This document shows, one piece after another, positions 7,638 to 50,615 of a stretch of DNA of 64,000 bases. The notes below the pieces were generated by a model. That model did not search any database and had not been told where the DNA came from. It saw only the letters and a program-made list of their open reading frames with translations. A program made the position numbers and the translations under genes. The stretch is from Eledone cirrhosa (lineage: Eukaryota). Positions within the stretch are counted from its first letter, which is position 1; every line of letters starts with the position of its first letter. The stretch is from assembly GCA_964016885.1 (NCBI GenBank), contig OZ024740.1, positions 272,056,001-272,120,000 of the forward strand. The letters run 5' to 3'.

Positions 7638-7927
7638 GTGCACTCTGCTTTCCTTTTTGGTTGCTACCTTAATGATGCTGGCTTACTTAAAGTATGGAGG
7701 GAATGAGAAATCGGTCGCAGATACAGAGATACATCGGTTATTCCGATGACTTCGTTTCAATATCGTATTCCCCTCTTGGACGCAACTCACCTCCCCAATT
7801 TCTCTAATACCTCGTCCATTATCACACCCCTAGATTCCTATCGCTTCCTCTTGATCATTAACATCTTCTCTTACAACTAATACATGCCGACTATATATGC
7901 TCACTCCACTTTTCCCTTCACTGCTCT

Positions 7928-10900
7928 GTATACACACATACACACCCTTATATTAACATACTTTTGCTCATAGTTTCGTACTTACATGTATATACACATA
8001 CACACCCTTATATTAACATACTTTTGCTCATAGTTTCGTACTTACATGTATACACACATACACACCCTTATATTAACATACTTTTGCTCATAGTTTCGTA
8101 CTTACATGTATACACACATACACACCCTTATATTAACATACTTTTGCTCATAGTTTCGTACTTACATGTATACACACATACACACCCTTATATTAACATA
8201 CTTTTGCTCATAGTTTCGTACTTACATGTATATACACATACACACCCTTATATTAACATACTTTTGCTCATAGCTTCGTACTTACATGTATACACACATA
8301 CACACCCTTATATTAACATACTTTTGCTCATAGTTTCGTACTTACATGTATACACACATACACACCCTTATATTAACATACTTTTGCTCATAGTTTCGTA
8401 CTTACATGTATATACACATACACACCCTTATATTAACATACTTTTGCTCATAGTTTCGTACTTACATGTATACACACATACACACCCTTATATTAACATA
8501 CTTTTGCTCATAGTTTCGTACTTACATGTATATACACATACACACCCTTATATTAACATACTTTTGCTCATAGTTTCGTACTTACATGTATACACACATA
8601 CTCACACTTATATTAACATACTTTTGCTCATAGTTTCGTACTTACATGTATACACACATACACACCCTTATATTAACATACTTTTGCTCATAGTTTCGTA
8701 CTTACATGTATACACACATACTCACCCTTATATTAACATACTTTTGCTCATAGTTTCGTACTTACATGTATACACACCCTTATATTAACATACTTTTGCT
8801 CATAGTATTGTACTTACATGTATACACACATACACACCCTTATATTAACATACTTTTGCTCATAGTTTTGTACTTACATGTATACACACATACACACCCT
8901 TATATTAACATACTTTTGCTCATAGTTTTGTACTTACATGTATACACACATACACACCCTTATATTAACATACTTTTGCTCATAGTTTCGTACTTACATG
9001 TATACACACATACACACCCTTATATTAACATACTTTTGCTCATAGTTTTGTACTTACATGTATACACACATACACACCCTTATATTAACATACTTTTGCT
9101 CATAGTTTCGTACTTACATGTATACACACATACACACCCTTATATTAACATACTTTTGCTCATAGTTTCGTACTTACATGTATACACACATACACACCCT
9201 TATATTAACATACTTTTGCTCATAGTTTTGTACTTACATCTATACACACATACACACTCTTATATTAACATACTTTTGCTCATAGTTTCGTACTTACATG
9301 TATACACACATACACACCCTTATATTAACATACTTTTGCTCATAGTTTCGTACTTACATGTATACACACATAGTCACCCTTATATTAACATACTTTTGCT
9401 CATAGCTTCGTACTTACATGTATACACACCCTTATATTAACATACTTTTGCTCATAGTTTCGTACTTACATGTATACACACATACACACTCTTATATTAA
9501 CATACTTTTGCTCATAGTTTCGTACTTACATGTATACACACATACACACCCTTATATTAACATACTTTTGCTCATAGCTTCGTACTTACATGTATACACA
9601 CATACACACCCATATATTAACATACTTTTGCTCATAGTTTCGTACTTACATGTATACACACATACACACCCTTATATTAACATACTTTTGCTCATAGTTT
9701 CGTACTTACATGTATACACACATAGACACCCTAATATTAACATACTTTTGCTCATAGTTTCGTACTTACATGAATACACACATTCACACCCTTGTATTAA
9801 CATACTTTTGCTCATAGCTTCGTACTTACATGTATACACACATACACACTCTTATATTAACATACTTTTGCTCATAGTTTCGTACTTACAGGTATACACA
9901 CATACACACACTTATATTAACATACTTTTGCTCATAGTTTCGTACTTGCATGTATACACACATACACACCCTTATATTAACATACTTTTGCTCATAGCTT
10001 CGTACTTACATGTATACACACATACACACCCTTATATTAACATACTTTTGCTCATAGCTTCGTACTTACATGTATACACACATACACACCCTTATATTAA
10101 CATACTTTTGCTCATAGTTTCGTACTTACATGTATACACAAATACACACCCTTATATTAACATACTTTTGCTCATAGCTTCGTACTTACATGTATACACA
10201 CCCTTATATTAACATACTTTTGCTCATAGCTTCGTACTTACATGTATACAGACATACACACCCTTATATTAACATACTTTTGCTCATAGTTTCGTACTTA
10301 CATGTATACAGACATACTCACCCTTATATTAACATACTTTTGCTCATAGCTTCGTACTTACATGTATACACACCCTTATATTAACATACTTTTGCTCATA
10401 GTTTCGTACTTACATGTATACACACATACACACACTTATATTAACATACTTTTGCTCATAGTTTCGTACTTGCATGTATACACACATTCACACCCTTGTA
10501 TTAACATACTTTTGCTCATAGCTTCGTACTTACATGTATACACACATACACACTCTTATATTAACATACTTTTGCTCATAGTTTCGTACTTACATGTATA
10601 CACACATACACACCCTTATATTAACATACTTTTGCTCATAGTTTCGTACTTACATGTATACAGACATACTCACCCTTATATTAACATACTTTTGCTCATA
10701 GCTTCGTACTTACATGTATACACACATAGACACCCTTATATTAACATACTTTTGCTCATAGTTTCGTACTTACATGAATACACACATACACACCCTTGTA
10801 TTAACATACTTTTGCTCATAGCTTCATACTTACATCTATACACACATACTCACCCTTATATTAACATACTTTTGCTCATAGTTTCGTACTTAGATGTATA

Positions 10901-13105
10901 CACACATACACACCCTTATATTAACATACTTTTGCTCATAGCTTCGTACTTACATGTATACACACCCTTATATTAACATACTTTTGCTCATAGCTTCGTA
11001 CTTACATGTATACAGACATACACACCCTTATATTAACATACTTTTGCTCATAGTTTCGTACTTACATGTATACACACATACTCACCCTTATATTAACATA
11101 CTTTTGCTCATAGTTTCGTACTTACATGTATACACAAATACACACCCTTATATTAACATACTTTTGCTCATAGTTTCGTACTTACATGTATACACACATA
11201 CACACCCTTATATTAACATACTTTTGCTCATAGTTTCGTACTTACATGTATACACACATACACACCCTTATATTAACATACTTTTGCTCATAGTTTCGTA
11301 CTTACATGTATACACACATAGACACCCTTATATTAACATACTTTTGCTCATAGTTTCGTACTTACATGAATACACACATACACACCCTTGTATTAACATA
11401 CTTTTGCTCATAGCTTCGTACTTACATCTATACACACATACACACTCTTATATTAACATACTTTTGCTCATAGTTTCGTACTTACATGTATACACACATA
11501 CACACCCTTATATTAACATACTTTTGCTCATAGTTTCGTACTTGCATGTATACACACATACACACCCTTATATTAACATACTTTTGCTCATAGCTTCGTA
11601 CTTACATGTATACACACATACACACCCTTATATTAACATACTTTTGCTCATAGTTTCGTACTTACATGTATACACACATACTCACCCTTATATTAACATA
11701 CTTTTGCTCATAGTTTTGTACTTACATGTATACACACATACACACCCTTATATTAACATACTTTTGCTCATAGTTTCGTACTTACATGTATACACACATA
11801 CACACCCTTATATTAACATACTTTTGCTCATAGTTTCGTACTTACATGTATACACACATAGACACCCTTATATTAACATACTTTTGCTCATAGTTTCGTA
11901 CTTACATGAATACACACATACACACCCTTGTATTAACATACTTTTGCTCATAGCTTCGTACTTACATGTATACACACATACACACTCTTATATTAACATA
12001 CTTTTGCTCATAGTTTCGTACTTACATGTATACACACATACACACCCTTATATTAACATACTTTTGCTCATAGCTTCGTACTTACATGTATACACACATA
12101 CACACCCTTATATTAACATACTTTTGCTCATAGTTTCGTACTTACATGTATACACACATACACACCCTTATATTAACATACTTTTGCTCATAGCTTCGTA
12201 CTTACATGTATACACACATACACACCCTTATATTAACATACTTTTGCTCATAGTTTCGTACTTACATGTATACACACATACACACCCTTATATTAACATA
12301 CTTTTGCTCATAGTTTCGTACTTACATGTATACACACATACACACCCTTATATTAACATACTTTTGCTCATAGTTTCGTACTTACATGTATACACACATA
12401 CTCACCCTTATATTAACATACTTTTGCTCATAGTTTCGTACTTACATGTATACACACATACACACCCTTATATTAACATACTTTTGCTCATAGTTTCGTA
12501 CTTACATGTATATACACATACACACCCTTATATTAACATACTTTTGCTCATAGTTTTGTACTTACATGTATACACACATACACACCCTTATATTAACATA
12601 CTTTTGCTCATAGTTTCGTACTTACATGTATACACACATACACACCCTTAAATTAACATACTTTTGCTCATAGTTTCGTACTTACATGTATACACACATA
12701 CACACCCTTATATTAACATACTTTTGCTCATAGTTTCGTACTTACATGTATACACACATACACACCCTTATATTAACATACTTTTGCTCATAGTTTCGTA
12801 CTTACATGTATACACACATACACACCCTTATATTAACATACTTTTGCTCATAGTTTCGTACTTACATGTATACACACATACTCACCCTTATATTAACATA
12901 CTTTTGCTCATAGTTTCGTACTTACATGTATACACACATACACACCCTTATATTAACATACTTTTGCTCATAGTTTCGTACTGACAAGTATACACTCTCT
13001 TATATTAACATACTTTTGCTCATAGTTTCGTACTTACATGTATACACACATACACACCCTTATATTAACATACTTTTGCTCATAGTTTCATACTTACATG
13101 CACAT
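7928..13105. repeat. 60-bp tandem satellite, about 86 units
   Basis: Unit gtatacacacatacacacccttatattaacatacttttgctcatagtttcgtacttacat; successive 60-nt lines are near-identical. Occasional 52-bp units lack 8 bp of the CA-rich part. Confidence 0.98.
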
Positions 13106-13552
13106 ACACTCTTTCACTCACATATACACACACATTTCTCCTTAGCTTCATACGGACGTATAATAACCCCCCCCCCCCCCCCCTCCACACACCCACGCTT
13201 ACGCACGTGCACAAATCTAGTTCTTTTTACAAAACGGTTATTTTTCCATTTCAGGTAGACGCGCTCCATTATCCACTTTTCTAAAAAGATAAATCATATA
13301 CCAAACTCCAGCACCAACAGTTTTGCAAGAGATGTCAACATGAATGGACCTGTTATTATTATCTAAAGACATTTTTTCCAATTCCAACCCGCCCGTCCCT
13401 TCAATCTATCTTATTTCTCATTCTTTCTTCTGATGAAGGACTAGCGTCAGACACGTTAAAACCCTCTTCCTGCTATATCAAGCGTTAACCTAATATATAT
13501 CCCTTCCATATACTGTACCGACCGATTGTGTTATTATTTCTGTTTACATTTT

Positions 13553-13607: not shown

Positions 13608-13660
13608 GGGACCGTCCTGATGAAGACCACTCAAGTCTGAAATGTATAGACGGTTGTCCC
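13608..13660 (+). ncRNA. Minimal type I hammerhead ribozyme, intact core
   Basis: gggaccgtc-CTGATGA-agac(cactcaa)gtct-GAAA-tgta-TA-gacggttgtccc. Helix I accgtc/gacggt (extends ggga/tccc across a bulge), 4-bp helix II, self-complementary helix III ATGTAT. Predicted cut after A13648. Confidence 0.8.
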
Positions 13661-22772: not shown

Positions 22773-23356
22773 CTACAAGGCCAGGAATTTTAGGTGAGAG
22801 AGAAAGTCGATTAAATCGACCCTTAGTGCATTTTTATCAAGCCCGTAAGTATGGAAGGCAAAGTTAACCTTGGCGGGATTTAAACTCAGAACGTAAAGGA
22901 ACGTAACTCTATGCTGCAAAGCATGTGTCCGACGCTCTACCGATACTGCCAATCCACCGCCCTTAATAATTGTTTCTACTTTTGGCACAAGGCCAGCAAT
23001 TATTCCAGTGTATTACTGGTACTTTATTTTATCGACCCCGTAAGGATGAAAGGCAAAGTTAACCTTGGCGGGATTTAAACTCAGAACGTAAAGGAACTTA
23101 ACTCTATGCTGCAAAGCATGTCGTCCGACGCTCTACCGATACTGCCAATCCACCGCCCTTAATAATTGTTTCTACTTTAGGCACAAGGCCAGCAATTATT
23201 CCAGTGTATTACTGGTACTTTATTTTATCGACCCCGTAAGGATGAAAGGCAAAGTTAACCTCGGCGGGATTTGAACTCAGATCATAAGGGGTGTAACTCT
23301 ATGCTGCAAAGCATGTCGTCCGACCCTCTACCGATACTGCCAATCCACTGCCCTTA
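22773..23356 (-). mobile_element. Three head-to-tail SINE family A copies
   Basis: Roughly 188-bp period, junction ccgcccttaataattgtttctac. Confidence 0.9.
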
Positions 23357-23466
23357 ATAATAATAATAATAAGTTTTACAAATGGAAACAGAAGACGCTA
23401 CGGTGCAAGCAAATTGAGCAAATAGTATCGCAGGAAGGGAGAAATATATTTTCAGTAGCTCTAACA

Positions 23467-23549
23467 GTTGGCAGGTGAACAGTGAACTGCACTGATGAAG
23501 GGTAATCACCCAGAAACATTAGTGTCTGCAGTTCTGTTTACATGCCAAC
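23467..23549 (+). ncRNA. Type I hammerhead ribozyme with extended bulged helix I, intact core
   Basis: gttggca-g-gtgaacag-tg-aactgca CTGATGA a-gggt(aatc)accc-a GAAA ca(ttag)tg TC tgcagtt-ctgtttac-a-tgccaac. About 22 bp of helix I; GUC triplet at 23524-23526. Confidence 0.88.
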
Positions 23550-23704
23550 ACAAGAGCAAGAATGAGGGGTTCATTCTACTGACATGGCTATAAAATTGAG
23601 GCTTGTTTGCATAATAGCAAACGAATCGAATATTATTATTAATATTCGAAAAACTCAGATTACATTTATTGTATTCAGTCATGTAGAGCGGTAACTTTTT
23701 TTTG

Positions 23705-23749
<45 letters not shown>

Positions 23750-23822
23750 TACATACATACATACATACATATATATATGTATTCATATATACGTATATAT
23801 ATATATATATATATATTCCTAT

Positions 23823-23853
<31 letters not shown>

Positions 23854-23969
23854 CATACATATATATATTCATATATATATATATATATATTCCTATATAT
23901 ATATATATATATATTCATATATATATAGGTAAACATAGTCATAGGAAATATGTTCTATGGTCCCGGTTG

Positions 23970-46528: not shown

Positions 46529-49500
46529 TTGAGAGTTGGCTGTTTGAACGCGCGTGGCCTGGGCTCAGCTTGGAAGCAAGCAAAGCTTCTAAGTGACCTC
46601 AGGTCACAAAGTATAGATGTGATGGTTGTTTGCGAGAGTCGGATCAGCAGCGTGAGACAGCTGGCACCCGCCTTCGATGACTTTGAGATGCACGCATCTC
46701 TCTGTCAACCCGGAGGCGGGGGGGGGGGGGGGAGTTGCCGTACTGCTGGATAAACGTCTGACTCTCGACGTACAGATTGTTCACTCGGACCCGGGGGGTC
46801 GATTACTGGTGCTGGACGTCGGAGGCGGTGAAGGCGGGGCTTTCAGACTGGTCGGTCTTTATGCTCCCTTCGGGGCGGAAAGAGCCGACTTCTTCCAGCG
46901 TCTGGAGACTTTTCTAGGAACGTCGCGTTCCCTGCTTTTAGTGGGGGACTGGAATGGAATCCTAGATGCGCGTTGGGACTATGCAGGGGCATGTCCCGAT
47001 AGAGGGGGGTGTAGCAGCCTCAAGGGGTTACTCGATCGATTCGACCTGGTCGATAGATTTCGACTAGATTGTCCAACTGCGCCAACCTGGACCTGGGCAA
47101 ACCGCAGTGGACAATCTAGATCGTACCTAGATAGGTTTTTGGTTAGGAGTAAGGATAGGGACGTATTTAGTTGTCCAGAACTGATCATGGTTGGCTATTC
47201 AGATCACAAATTAGTGACCTGCGTGGTCAACCTTGATAGAACGCATAGACAGGGTCCCGGTTACTGGAAGATGAACTTGTCCTTACCGACAAAGAAAGAT
47301 TACAGAAACCGGATTAGTAGCTTAGTTAAGATGCGGTTGACGGGAGCGATCGTCAACAGTAGGTGGTGGGTATCTCTAAAGAGAGAGATTAGAGTAAGTT
47401 CGATAGGTTACAGTAAGGAACTAGCGGCGAATAGAAATAGGAGGGAAAGGGAGTTAACAGATAAACTAGAAGAGGCGATTAGGAGCGGAGACGTAGCCAG
47501 AGCGTTAGCGACGAGAACGGCGTTGAGCCAGTTCTTTGACGCGAAGCACGAAGGCTGCGTTGTCCGAAGTAAAATACGTGCTTTAGGAAACGAGGGGACC
47601 AAAGCTGTTAGCTGGGCCCGCGTGACAGAAGCCAAGAGTGGGATTAAATCCACCATTCGGTCTTTGCGAGACCAGGATGGACGGGTGATCCTTGAACCTG
47701 AGCGAATGTGCGAGACCTTTCAAAGGCACTTTGCTCGACTGTTCGGAGGTGGCGGGGGGCCGGACGGGGATGTGGACTTCGGTCCATACCTCGACGGTCT
47801 ACCGCGTCTTTCGAGCGGCGAAGCGGAGTGCTGCGAAAGGCCAATCACAGCCACTGAAATCGGGGAAGCGCTCAGCCAATGCAGCAGACGCAAATCCCCG
47901 GGTCTCGATGGTCTACCATACGAACTTTATTTAGCTATGCCGGTCTTGTTCTCCGAACTCCTCGAGGCTGTCTATTGCAACTGGCAACAGAACGGGAGAA
48001 TTCCCTGTTCTGTGACCAAGGGCGTGGTCACGCTAGTGAGGAAGGACGAGAGCAAGGGGGACGACTTAAGTAACTTTAGGCCCATAACTCTGCTGAATGC
48101 AGAGTTACAGATTTTGGCCAAGGTGTTGGCGAAGAGGTTGGCGCTTGTGGTGGGTGGTTTGGTGGGAGACGCGCAGACATGCGCTATCCCGTCCAGGTCC
48201 ATTCACGACAACCTCCACCTCATGCGATACATCATAGAGAGGGTTGGCTACGAACCCGGCTTTGGTGGGGCCCTGATCAACTTGGATCAATCTAAGGCGT
48301 TCGATAGGGTCGACCATGGTTACCTGGATGCGGTGCTAGCGGCGGCGGGCTTCGGACCCGTTTTCAAGGGCTGGATTTCTGCCATGCACAGTGGCAACAT
48401 CTACTCTAGGATTAAAGTAAACGGCTACCTCTCGGAGCCGTTTCAAATCACCCGATCCATCAGACAGGGGTGCCCCCTCTCCTCCCTTCTGTACGTATTG
48501 ACTCTCGAGCCACTGCTGCGGAAGTTGGAGTTGCTGCGGGGCATACCCCTGGAACCGGGATTGCACAAAGCGGTCTCGGCCTATGCCGACGACGTAACAG
48601 TAATGGTGGCGGACGCCTCGGAAATCGGGGCGATCGCCACCCTACTGGAGGAATACGAAAGGCTGACGGGGGCTAAGCTGAACCAGGACAAGTCAGTCGG
48701 TTTGCAACTCGGAACGTGGAGGGGCAAACCGATGCCGTTAGACGGTGTCGTCGGGCGGTGGACGGAGGGCCCGGTGAAGCTGCTCGGGGTCTGGTTCGGA
48801 CCGGACCTCCAGGTGGAGAAGAATTGGGACGAGGTGACGAGCAGGGTGTTTGCGCTGACCCAGAAGTGGGCCAAGTGCAAACTATCACTGAAAGGTCGGG
48901 CGGAGGTGACGAACGCTTACATAGCGTCCGTCATCTACTACCGCCTGACCGTCGTGCCTTGCCCCAAGGAAAAGCTCACCATCATGGAACGCATGCTCTT
49001 CCAGTTCCTCTGGAAGAAGCGGCCTCCCATGGTGAGGAGATCCATCTGCTGCCAGCACCCTTCGAAAGGAGGGCTGGGTATGCCGTGGCTGTTGATGCGT
49101 AGGCACGCATTGAGGCTACGGCATCTACAGGTATTCCTCAACGGTCAGCCGGTGTGGGCCCCGTTTGTGAGGCGAGCCTTCCCACAGCTCGTCTCGCTCA
49201 CCGAACTGCAATCCTGGGTGAAGCAAAGACCGAGAAAACTGGGCAACTGGCACACCGAGTCTGCCCAGGCGCTCACGGCTATCTGGCAAGCGGACCCGAC
49301 TGTCAGTGGAGAATCCACCTCGACATTCTATAGAGGGTTGGTGGCTAGCAGGGGCGACGACACCCTTGGAGAGTCGCTAGGCATGGAGGAGGACGAACTG
49401 GCCAGCCTGTTCGGTAGAACTTTCGGCCCGGGACCCATGGACAACTTCCAGAGGTCCCTAGCCTGGCAGTGTTACCGGGGGGCTCTGCCCGTTCGAGAAA

Positions 49501-49597
49501 AGCTCTACAGACACGGGCGCCCGGGCAGGGATCCCGCGAAAAAGATCTGTCCCAGATGCGTGCGCGACGAGGAAACCGTTGCGCATGCACTGGCATG
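46529..49597 (+). CDS. Tx1-like ORF2p: AP endonuclease, reverse transcriptase and partial C-terminal zinc finger; frameshift in the G-run at 46718-46732
   Basis: VGCLNARGL, GGVAVLL, GDWN, YLDRFLV, SDH, GPGYWKMN, KSPGLDGL, FRPITLLN, LDQSKAFDRVDH, RQGCPLS, YADD, CPRC..ETVAHAL. Confidence 0.92.
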
Positions 49598-50615
49598 TTT
49601 ATCCCTCCTTTCTGAAACAGAGAAGTACGGAATACCTCGGCCTGAGGATGGTGTCTACATTTTGTGCTTATAAAAAAAATTCGTTGTAGATTAGCAGGAG
49701 TTTAACTTAATTGGGTGTCTGAGTTCAACCCACGAAAGCCTAGACGATAGGCATTCGACAAACCGAACATGTATTTGTTGTGCTATGGTCCAATGAAAGC
49801 AATAGTTACAGAGCAGTAAGCATGTGGGACTGCAGTGGTGGAGAGCATGAAGGAATTTAGTTGGATACTTTTAAGGTTACAAAAATCTACCCAATCTGAT
49901 ATAGACCGAACTGTTATATCGGATGCCGAACGCCTCGGAGTTACTATTGGGGTCACCATCAACAATTTCAAGGGATGTACGTTTAAGTATGGATAATATA
50001 GTCTATAAAGAGAGGTAATTCTTTCAAAATACTAAAGAGCTGTCTCTCTTGAACATTGTAGATGAAATTTCCGAACTAACTGACAAAAAGGGCTTAAAGT
50101 TTTAGTGAAAAAAAAACGCCTTTAACAACAGAAAATTGAAAAATAAAAGGTGCAATTAATATCTTTAGACCGCAAGGAATATATAAATGCAAGTTTGAAG
50201 TCAATCGGAGTAGAAATGTGGATTTGTATAGACTTTGGCAAAATTAGGACACACACACACACACAGACAACTTCAGTTTTATATATATGTATAGATATAT
50301 ATATACATGCACATGTCAACTCAAAATATACAAGGTTTATTTCCCTTTCGATAACTCTCATATACTCTGACCCAAACTTACCCACAATGGCTGATTAAAA
50401 GCACACGTGCTTTCCCCACGAAAAATATTTTTCCGTTTCTCCCCCTTCTTACTCCCGTCTATCTTTTTATTTCTTTATTTATCTCTCAGTTTATCTTTTG
50501 ATAAAGAACTGATGTCCGAAACGTTAAGATTCTTTTCCTAGAATATTAAGTGTTAAAATAATATATATTTTCATTGTACTGTATCGTTACCCTGTAATTT
50601 TCCGTTCACCTTTCG

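What the first reader, a model, noticed from the sequence alone, without database searches (positions are those of the whole stretch)
23364..23705. Best-formed ribozyme: extended hammerhead with bulged helix I and a GUC site
Seen: about 22 bp of helix I with a TG bulge 7 bp from the core, a 4-bp helix II, a real 3-bp helix III and a GUC triplet. The island ends in (TA)n and has no ORF. Established: a helix I bulge/loop II contact is what makes natural type I hammerheads fast. Unusual: the positions flanking helix II are A and A rather than a canonical pair. Inference: possibly active as a monomer and able to cut any plus-strand transcript here.
Basis: partly seen in the sequence, partly recalled or inferred. 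Interest (0 to 1): 0.72.

Follow-up and report, generated by a model that had tools for sequence, protein, structure and literature searches.

The report
Retrozyme hammerhead with fixed A·A mismatch
This is a real hammerhead-ribozyme motif in a cut-short copy of an abundant non-coding repeat that has lost its likely promoter; an A·A mismatch stands where hammerheads normally have a G–C pair, in over 1,400 copies here and in unrelated hammerheads from metagenomes, and the RNA is predicted to lock itself off as a single unit and likely cuts only in pairs.

Summary
The hammerhead is there as described: 22-bp helix I, UG bulge, intact core, GUC at C23526. It lies in a 5'-truncated copy (23444-23705) of a ~440-nt non-coding repeat. 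Copies form head-to-tail partial tandems, inverted 5' arms and two fixed 3' ends on microsatellites: a non-LTR retrozyme with Penelope-type insertion scars. Complete units carry an element matching this genome's U1/U2 promoters; this copy has lost it. The A/A is no private defect: 1,489 exact cores have it, none has the canonical join. Rfam HH9 places it at 10.1·11.1, the usual G–C. It recurs in 11 of 28 distinct metagenomic matches that form complete type I or III hammerheads (null 2%). Monomer activity is doubtful: helix III is a 10-nt palindrome that also pairs with the catalytic core, a fold predicted 5.9 kcal/mol more stable. Pairing two copies narrows but does not close that gap. Cleavage, transcription and the partner enzyme are untested. 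The scan already noted this class, promoter and end signature on other DNA of this genome. I did not find the A·A variant in print, though key newt satellite 2 papers were not held.

The parts
23444..23705 (+). 5'-truncated copy of the ~440-nt retrozyme unit (unit positions 180 to the end); promoter part missing
   Evidence: paralogues match from 23444 on; 94.7% to the L008 unit
23444..23453 (+). remnant TATA-like tail of the snRNA-type promoter element
   Evidence: complete copies carry the element; best score at this locus 4.8 bits against 21.5
23467..23491 (+). helix I, 5' strand, with the UG bulge at 23483-23484; predicted transcription start of complete copies falls at 23472-23477 (inferred)
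23492..23498 (+). catalytic core C3-A9 (CUGAUGA); predicted to be sequestered by loop III in the monomer
23499..23512 (+). helix II arm: A23499·A23512 mismatch at position 10.1·11.1, three G–C pairs, loop UAAUCA (or a fourth U–A pair and a four-base loop); C23507 is present in 8 of 69 copies
23513..23516 (+). core G12-A15.1 (GAAA)
23516..23525 (+). palindromic helix III/loop III: +1.7 kcal/mol as a hairpin, -8.8 as a 10-bp duplex between two copies; also complementary to 23491-23497
23526..23526 (+). C17 of the GUC triplet; predicted cleavage after this base
23527..23549 (+). helix I, 3' strand; U23533 is U1.7 in the HH9 alignment, present in 69 of 69 copies
23648..23662 (+). weak look-alike of the 3' box of this genome's U1/U2 genes (inconclusive)
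   Evidence: 6.1 bits; 142 of 127,970 window positions score as high; 7 of 8 true boxes score 10.6-18.2
23696..23705 (+). T-rich end of the unit; the 'long' one of the family's two fixed insertion ends
23706..23927 (.). (TA)n microsatellite, the likely insertion target
   Evidence: 98 of 132 copies ending at unit position 395 or later have a microsatellite within 40 nt

Best explanation
The motif is a type I hammerhead in a 5'-truncated copy of a ~440-nt non-coding repeat, a non-LTR retrozyme that is likely copied by a Penelope-type enzyme, and it is predicted to stay locked as a single unit and would cut mainly when two units pair through their palindromic helix III. Shown: the anatomy, the copy number, the fixed A·A, the tandem and inverted arrangements, the two fixed ends, and the likeness of the upstream block to this genome's snRNA promoters. 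Inferred: a complete unit starts transcription about 50 nt before the cleavage site; read-through across a head-to-tail junction gives an RNA with two hammerheads; the palindromes pair and free the cores; cleavage gives unit-length RNA that may circularise; in the unit-length RNA loop III pairs with the core and prevents further cutting; a Penelope-type RT/GIY-YIG protein, acting in trans, copies it into (TA)n. The A·A likely stacks under the G12·A9 pair as a tolerated replacement of G10.1–C11.1, probably at some cost in rate. This particular copy has no promoter and no same-strand partner, so it is probably silent.
For: Family: 2,443 candidates; 1,489 exact cores, control 0. Of 138 loci, 39 have a head-to-tail junction, 10 hold two same-strand ribozymes and 62 have an inverted 5' arm; of the 35 two-armed loci with both ends classed, 34 have one short and one long end, the Penelope tail signature (PMC8557442, PMC11167929). 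Unit spacing 418-444 nt in six natural tandems; the L008 circle has 37% GC and folds at z -7.8 against 60 shuffles. Promoter: a model from 9 U1/U2 promoters scores the unit's site 21.5 bits (true promoters, leave-one-out, 10.9-26.9); 0 of 127,920 window positions score as high; 109 of 190 cores have such a site 72-82 nt upstream; two U6 promoters have an octamer at -76/-77 and TATA at -30, a spacing close to the unit's. Lock: core pairs with loop III at P 0.99 or more; hammerhead fold -33.2 against -39.1; only 5 of 216 self-complementary loops lock as well. Dimer: double hammerhead -75.6 against -75.2 for two locked monomers. A·A tolerated: 11 of 28 distinct metagenomic matches form complete hammerheads with unrelated helices I and III, null 177 of 8,061.
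Against: No cleavage or transcription data. A cross-locked dimer is predicted 3.4 kcal/mol below the active dimer, and in six natural tandems the palindrome duplex has probability 0 to 0.22, so the energy model does not show the dimer active either; it ignores core and loop-loop contacts. The control is mixed: two long-helix-III A·A hammerheads fold correctly (core paired 0.10, 0.18) but five others score 0.28-0.69, against 0.85 here. No two-sided compensatory change in 46 copies; paired cells 95.3%, matched by 299 of 500 shuffles. No partner Penelope element sharing this end was found. Only 10 of 138 loci have two ribozymes in one chain. In print, 8 of 9 Xenopus retrozyme dimers did not cleave (10.64898/2026.07.22.740005), and hammerhead mutants did not affect insertion by an anole Penelope protein (PMC11167929). 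Polymerase II versus III is unresolved.
Confidence: 0.6

Rival explanations
1. Same retrozyme family, but the extended hammerhead cuts efficiently as a monomer because the helix I bulge/loop II contact and core contacts outweigh the locked fold.
For: Canonical extended geometry in the HH9 alignment; this copy has the six-base loop II; helix III has 3 bp and a tetraloop; coral and mussel retrozyme monomers cleave at about 0.8 and 0.1 per min (PMC7229834); the energy model misfolds several genuine hammerheads.
Against: 5.9 kcal/mol gap and helix III probability 0.0; palindromic loop III; mismatch at the most conserved helix II pair; the axolotl family with a U·U mismatch at the base of helix II cleaves only 22% in an hour as a monomer.
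Confidence: 0.18
2. The family spreads with a crippled ribozyme: the A·A and the lock make it nearly inactive, and the Penelope enzyme copies uncut tandem transcripts.
For: U·U is reported as the best-tolerated mispair at 10.1·11.1, so A·A should be slower (PMC3088659); 8 of 9 Xenopus dimers were inactive; ribozyme mutants did not block insertion in vitro; the cross-locked dimer is the predicted minimum.
Against: The core, the GUC site and the palindrome are intact in 1,489 copies across loop II subfamilies; the common helix polymorphisms are all pairing-compatible (23486 A/G with U, 23490 C/U with G, 23477 G with U/C); A·A recurs in unrelated complete hammerheads.
Confidence: 0.15
3. The unit is only the terminal repeat (pLTR) of an autonomous Penelope-like element whose coding part was not sampled.
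For: [quoted passage not shown]
Against: The unit's start is preceded by the unit's own end, an inverted piece or unrelated flank in the 30 loci fetched with the 5' part; Penelope fragments near copies that were inspected are separate nested insertions, some with a different hammerhead; the unit has its own snRNA-type block. Only about 170 loci of thousands were examined.
Confidence: 0.05
4. This copy is domesticated to cut a host transcript on the plus strand.
For: Intact core in this copy.
Against: It differs from paralogues about as much as they differ from one another (92-95%); no host exon seen in the window, only transposon frames; predicted locked.
Confidence: 0.02

Closest known systems
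Metazoan non-LTR retrozymes (coral, mussel, axolotl: Cervera and de la Peña 2020, PMC7229834; Li, Clavereau and Pollet 2026, 10.64898/2026.07.22.740005)
   Same: Non-coding unit of a few hundred bases, GC under 50%, one type I hammerhead per unit, highly self-paired predicted circle, tandem and solo copies, link to Penelope-like elements.
   Different: A·A at 10.1·11.1; mostly dispersed, truncated and two-armed copies rather than long arrays; no target-site duplication seen; RNA not shown.
Axolotl HHR_Amex2 and the natural U10.1·U11.1 variant (PMC7229834; Perreault et al. 2011, PMC3088659)
   Same: Mismatch at the base of helix II in a natural, high-copy family; weak as monomer, better as dimer in the axolotl.
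   Different: Purine-purine A·A instead of U·U; 3-bp helix III within a 10-nt palindrome that can also pair with the core.
Newt satellite 2 (Coats et al. 1994, seen only as cited in PMC2220036; dimer and extended-monomer cleavage as summarised in PMC6155905)
   Same: Hammerhead repeat with an internal snRNA-type promoter, palindromic helix III and internally looped extension of helix I.
   Different: Octopus-like host (recalled inference), 440 versus about 330 nt. From memory only and unverified: the newt helix II may also be closed by A·A; the primary papers were not held.
Minimal hammerheads of Penelope pLTRs (Cervera and de la Peña 2014, PMC4209133)
   Same: Palindromic helix III, unpaired base after A9, dimer-type action, (TA)n targets, tail signature.
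   Different: Those keep G12 directly after a conserved G10.1–C11.1 and lack the helix I extension; here there is an A on both sides, a long helix I and no ORF.
Rfam Hammerhead_HH9 (RF02275)
   Same: Helix lengths and loop positions align end to end.
   Different: 22.4 bits against a cut-off of 52; HH9 is an ultraconserved intronic family (recalled), this is a mobile repeat.

Membership tests
Type I hammerhead ribozyme | Core CUGANGA, GAAA, NUH joined by three helices, helix I open | tested here: met
Type I hammerhead ribozyme | Base pair at 10.1–11.1 (usually G–C) directly between A9 and G12 | tested here: not met
   A·A in 64 of 69 copies, 1,489 versus 0. The pair is strongly conserved but not invariant: natural U·U is known.
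Type I hammerhead ribozyme | Self-cleavage at the NUH site | not testable with these tools
   needs a cleavage assay
Extended (fast) type I hammerhead | 6-bp helix I, internal loop, four-step helix II with loop able to contact it | tested here: inconclusive
   geometry fits HH9 for this copy but not for the five-base-loop copy L029; contact itself untested; no covariation
Rfam RF02275 HH9 | Score at or above 52 bits | tested here: not met
   22.4 bits
Non-LTR retrozyme | Non-coding unit of about 150-450 nt, GC under 50%, one type I hammerhead per unit | tested here: met
   418-444 nt spacing, 37% GC; no maintained frame
Non-LTR retrozyme | Head-to-tail repeats with two or more hammerheads | tested here: met
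   family: 10 of 138 loci; this copy is a solo fragment
Non-LTR retrozyme | Transcribed into linear and circular unit-length RNA | not testable with these tools
   needs northern blot or divergent RT-PCR
Non-LTR retrozyme | Target-site duplication, when present, longer than 4 bp | not tested
   no search was run; microsatellite targets hide duplications
Penelope-mobilised insertion | 5' truncation, inverted 5' arm, 30-40 nt tail at one end only, microsatellite target | tested here: met
   (34 of 35 two-armed loci have one short and one long end)
Autonomous Penelope-like element | RT and GIY-YIG frame between the terminal repeats | tested here: not met
   none joined to the unit in the loci examined, a small share of the family
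snRNA-type promoter | Upstream element like that of host U1/U2/U6 at the same spacing | tested here: met
   complete units; absent in this copy
snRNA-type promoter | 3' box downstream | tested here: inconclusive

The most novel reading that the evidence does not exclude
A10.1·A11.1 followed by three G–C pairs is a recurrent, working hammerhead variant that current models miss, used by an animal retrozyme and by unrelated type I and type III hammerheads in metagenomes; and in this family one 10-base palindrome is a two-state switch, pairing with the ribozyme's own core to protect the unit-length RNA and with a second copy to turn cutting on.
Probability: 0.3. Interest if true: 0.6.

Novelty: new variant of a known kind. 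Interest (0 to 1): 0.38.

Why it matters
The class is known and this copy is probably silent. Two points are worth a bench day. First, G10.1–C11.1 is the most conserved helix pair of the hammerhead after 15.1–16.1; a fixed natural A·A, seen in several unrelated lineages, would widen the consensus and explain why Rfam models miss such families. Second, how retrozyme RNA avoids cutting itself once unit-length is usually put down to a weak helix III; here there is a specific, testable lock in which loop III pairs with the core. The internal snRNA-type block extends the newt satellite 2 layout to another animal lineage, as earlier notes of this scan also reported.

Tried and rejected
Rfam at gathering level on the window and at E 10 on 501 nt: no hammerhead. 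23364-23443 as part of the element: rejected. A linked Penelope ORF: fragments near L016, L073, L126 and L269 are separate insertions; Pfam gave no useful hit on them; a Pfam family search for Penelope proteins could not be run because the accession was not in the library. Other A·A families in this genome: the 426 and 63 near-variant matches were mostly, and by their helix II arm all, the same family among those listed. Sister families with the same upstream element and G at 10.1: 31 matches; of the 30 fetched, 13 were point variants of this family that still have A at 11.1, one had a rearranged arm, and the rest were other sequences. A·A in viral contigs: 0, and none among 64 distinct matches of a capped sample of 80. 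In GTDB genomes 1 of 7 passed weakly, not above chance. Covariation: none. Antisense open frame across the L008 unit (141 codons, 0 of 1,500 shuffles): not maintained, since stops segregate in 46 of 85, 40 of 131 and 94 of 181 copies at three codons, and no Pfam hit. Sequencing runs: no RNA holder listed. Three contig sets of one sample, kind not on record, list no other letter at 23499 or 23512 and leave 23385-23435 without cover. Papers not held: Lünse 2017, Garrett 1996, Pabón-Peña 1991, Epstein 1991, Luzi 1997, Denti 2000, Coats 1994, Cremisi 1992 and two reviews tried by PMC id. Supplement of PMC7229834 could not be read; bioRxiv supplements are closed. These may show the A·A in amphibian or mollusc hammerheads.

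Full report
Observation. The stretch folds far better than shuffles (z -5.08; 0 of 200). Rfam finds nothing at gathering level or on 501 nt. On 88 nt the HH9 model aligns end to end at 22.4 bits, E 6.7e-4, cut-off 52. That alignment gives a 6-bp inner helix I followed by U1.7, an internal loop holding UG, a four-step helix II whose first step is A·A, and a six-base loop ending in A. So the A/A can be read as a mismatch at 10.1·11.1, or as two extra bases around a 4-bp helix; the sequence alone does not decide. A copy with the commoner five-base loop gave no hammerhead hit.

What it sits in. The genome is 3.0 Gb and looks octopus-like (recalled inference from size and repeats). A search with 23364-23705 gave 2,443 candidates, 40 scored, matching from 23444 on at 92-95%; 23364-23443 is unrelated flank. 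Other copies carry about 180 nt more at the 5' side, and that part is usually preceded by the unit's own 3' end: a head-to-tail unit spaced 418-444 nt in six natural tandems. Of 138 loci (ten duplicate or overlapping loci and those over 4 kb left out), 39 have a head-to-tail junction, 10 hold two same-strand ribozymes and 62 have an inverted 5' arm. In 35 two-armed loci both ends could be classed, and 34 have one short and one long end; 27 had an end elsewhere. 98 of 132 copies reaching the 3' end have a microsatellite within 40 nt. These loci were chosen by similarity or by pattern, so the shares are not genome-wide rates. Partial tandems, inverted arms, a 30-40 nt tail at one end and (TA)n targets are the described scars of Penelope-like elements (PMC8557442, passages; PMC11167929, passages). 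I looked for the end signature after reading earlier notes of this scan. No RT or endonuclease frame is joined to the unit; Penelope fragments near the copies inspected are separate insertions. The partner enzyme is unidentified.

The A·A. It is present in 64 of 69 aligned copies. Genome-wide, 1,489 sites match the exact core with A·A (control 0), and none matches the same arm joined directly to GAAA. Outside this genome, a metagenome scan for core plus A-GGG...CCC-A gave 35 stretches, 28 distinct; 11 form complete hammerheads, six of type I and five of type III, against 177 of 8,061 with shuffled flanks. By eye they fall into about eight unrelated groups. One (L154) has a near-identical viral relative with C at 11.1 (L218) and may be a point variant. 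Viral contigs gave none and GTDB genomes 1 weak pass of 7. In print I found the extra base after A9 with G10.1–C11.1 kept (PMC4209133, parts 1-2 of 4), a natural U10.1·U11.1 said to be the best-tolerated mispair (PMC3088659, passages and section 8), and an axolotl family with U·U at the base of helix II (PMC7229834, parts 2-3 of 6). Searches for A·A found nothing (supplement searches). From memory only, newt satellite 2 may have the same closure; those papers were not held.

Monomer or dimer. The ten bases 23516-23525 are self-complementary: +1.7 kcal/mol as a hairpin, -8.8 as a duplex of two copies. Such palindromes mark hammerheads that cut as dimers (PMC4209133; PMC6765202, passages). They are also complementary to 23491-23497. 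In the monomer the core pairs with them at probability 0.99 or more, in all three longer contexts helix III stays at 0.0, and the hammerhead fold lies 5.9 kcal/mol above the minimum. Only 5 of 216 self-complementary loops would lock as strongly. The double hammerhead (-75.6) matches two locked monomers (-75.2), but a cross-locked dimer is lower still (-79.0), and in six natural tandems the palindrome duplex has probability 0 to 0.22. The penalty per site thus falls from 5.9 to about 1.7 kcal/mol, which unmodelled core contacts might repay. As a control, two metagenomic A·A hammerheads with long helix III fold correctly and five do so only partly, so the model is a guide, not proof. Covariation gives no help: 0 two-sided changes in 46 copies, although the common one-sided changes in helix I keep pairing.

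Transcription. The 5' part missing here has three 33-nt repeats with octamer-like motifs (the octamer label is recalled) and then a block resembling the element found 57-59 nt before this genome's U1 and U2 genes. A model from nine such promoters scores it 21.5 bits, within the leave-one-out range of the true ones (10.9-26.9), and no window position of 127,920 scores as high; 109 of 190 cores in the fetched loci have it, and this copy scores 4.8. Two U6 promoters have an octamer at -76/-77 and TATA at -30, near the unit's spacing, and lack the U1/U2 block at that place. Either reading puts the start at the equivalent of 23472-23477, about 50 nt before the cut. The polymerase is open, and the 3' box match is weak. 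Newt satellite 2 is reported to use an snRNA promoter (cited in PMC2220036, passage). Earlier notes of this scan describe such promoters in retrozyme families of this genome; I had reached the U1/U2 match before reading them, and the U6 comparison was partly prompted by them.

Verdict. A real extended type I hammerhead in a promoterless fragment of a non-LTR retrozyme family (PMC7229834; 10.64898/2026.07.22.740005, parts 1-3 of 5). The window shows only transposon frames, so nothing supports cutting of a host transcript. What is new is narrow: a fixed and recurrent A·A at the base of helix II, and a predicted core lock. An Octopus vulgaris repeat annotation does not mention ribozymes (PMC13282606, passages). 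Class: new variant of a known kind; interest 0.38.

Noticed in passing
window 13430-13465 (+): Minimal hammerhead of another family with A before GAAA and a G·A at the base of helix II; 59 exact matches to a 22-letter pattern genome-wide. The window copy has a broken GAAA core.
   Followed up: partly
window 13609-13655 (+): Minimal hammerhead with A and U flanking a 3-bp helix II and a palindromic helix III, directly after (TA)n.
   Followed up: no
window 22832-23361: 2.7 tandem copies of a 195-nt SINE-like repeat just upstream; tRNA-type boxes read on the minus strand (label recalled), so it would transcribe away from the ribozyme.
   Followed up: no
window 37122 region (-): Hammerhead core of the abundant Penelope family with a mismatch in helix II, the same type as seen beside GIY-YIG fragments in L126, L131 and L277.
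   Followed up: no
window 44652-49670 (+): Two long frames (453 and 1,005 codons) that look like ORF1 and an endonuclease/RT ORF2 of a LINE (judged by eye).
   Followed up: no
L008:1322-1744 (-): 141-codon stop-free antisense frame across a whole unit; not kept in the family.
   Followed up: yes
L145, L147, L149, L152, L168, L176 (metagenome contigs): Type III hammerheads with A·A flanking helix II, several followed by G-rich runs; L147 missed the strict test by a mismatch in helix I.
   Followed up: partly
L157, L158 (metagenome contigs): A·A arm with a six-base palindromic helix III and GUC, AT-rich flanks; possibly an animal Penelope-type minimal hammerhead. Did not pass the helix I test.
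   Followed up: no
L177-L256 (viral contigs): An extra U after A9 with G10.1–C11.1 kept is common in phage hammerheads: 22 of 64 distinct matches, 19 complete.
   Followed up: no
G000:C3:307.35-307.45 Mb; C2:180.97-181.00 Mb; C19:31.78-31.84 Mb: Tandem arrays of U2, U1 and U6 snRNA genes; U1/U2 share an upstream block that the U6 genes lack.
   Followed up: partly
window 7927-13100: 87 copies of a 60-nt satellite, 95% matches.
   Followed up: no
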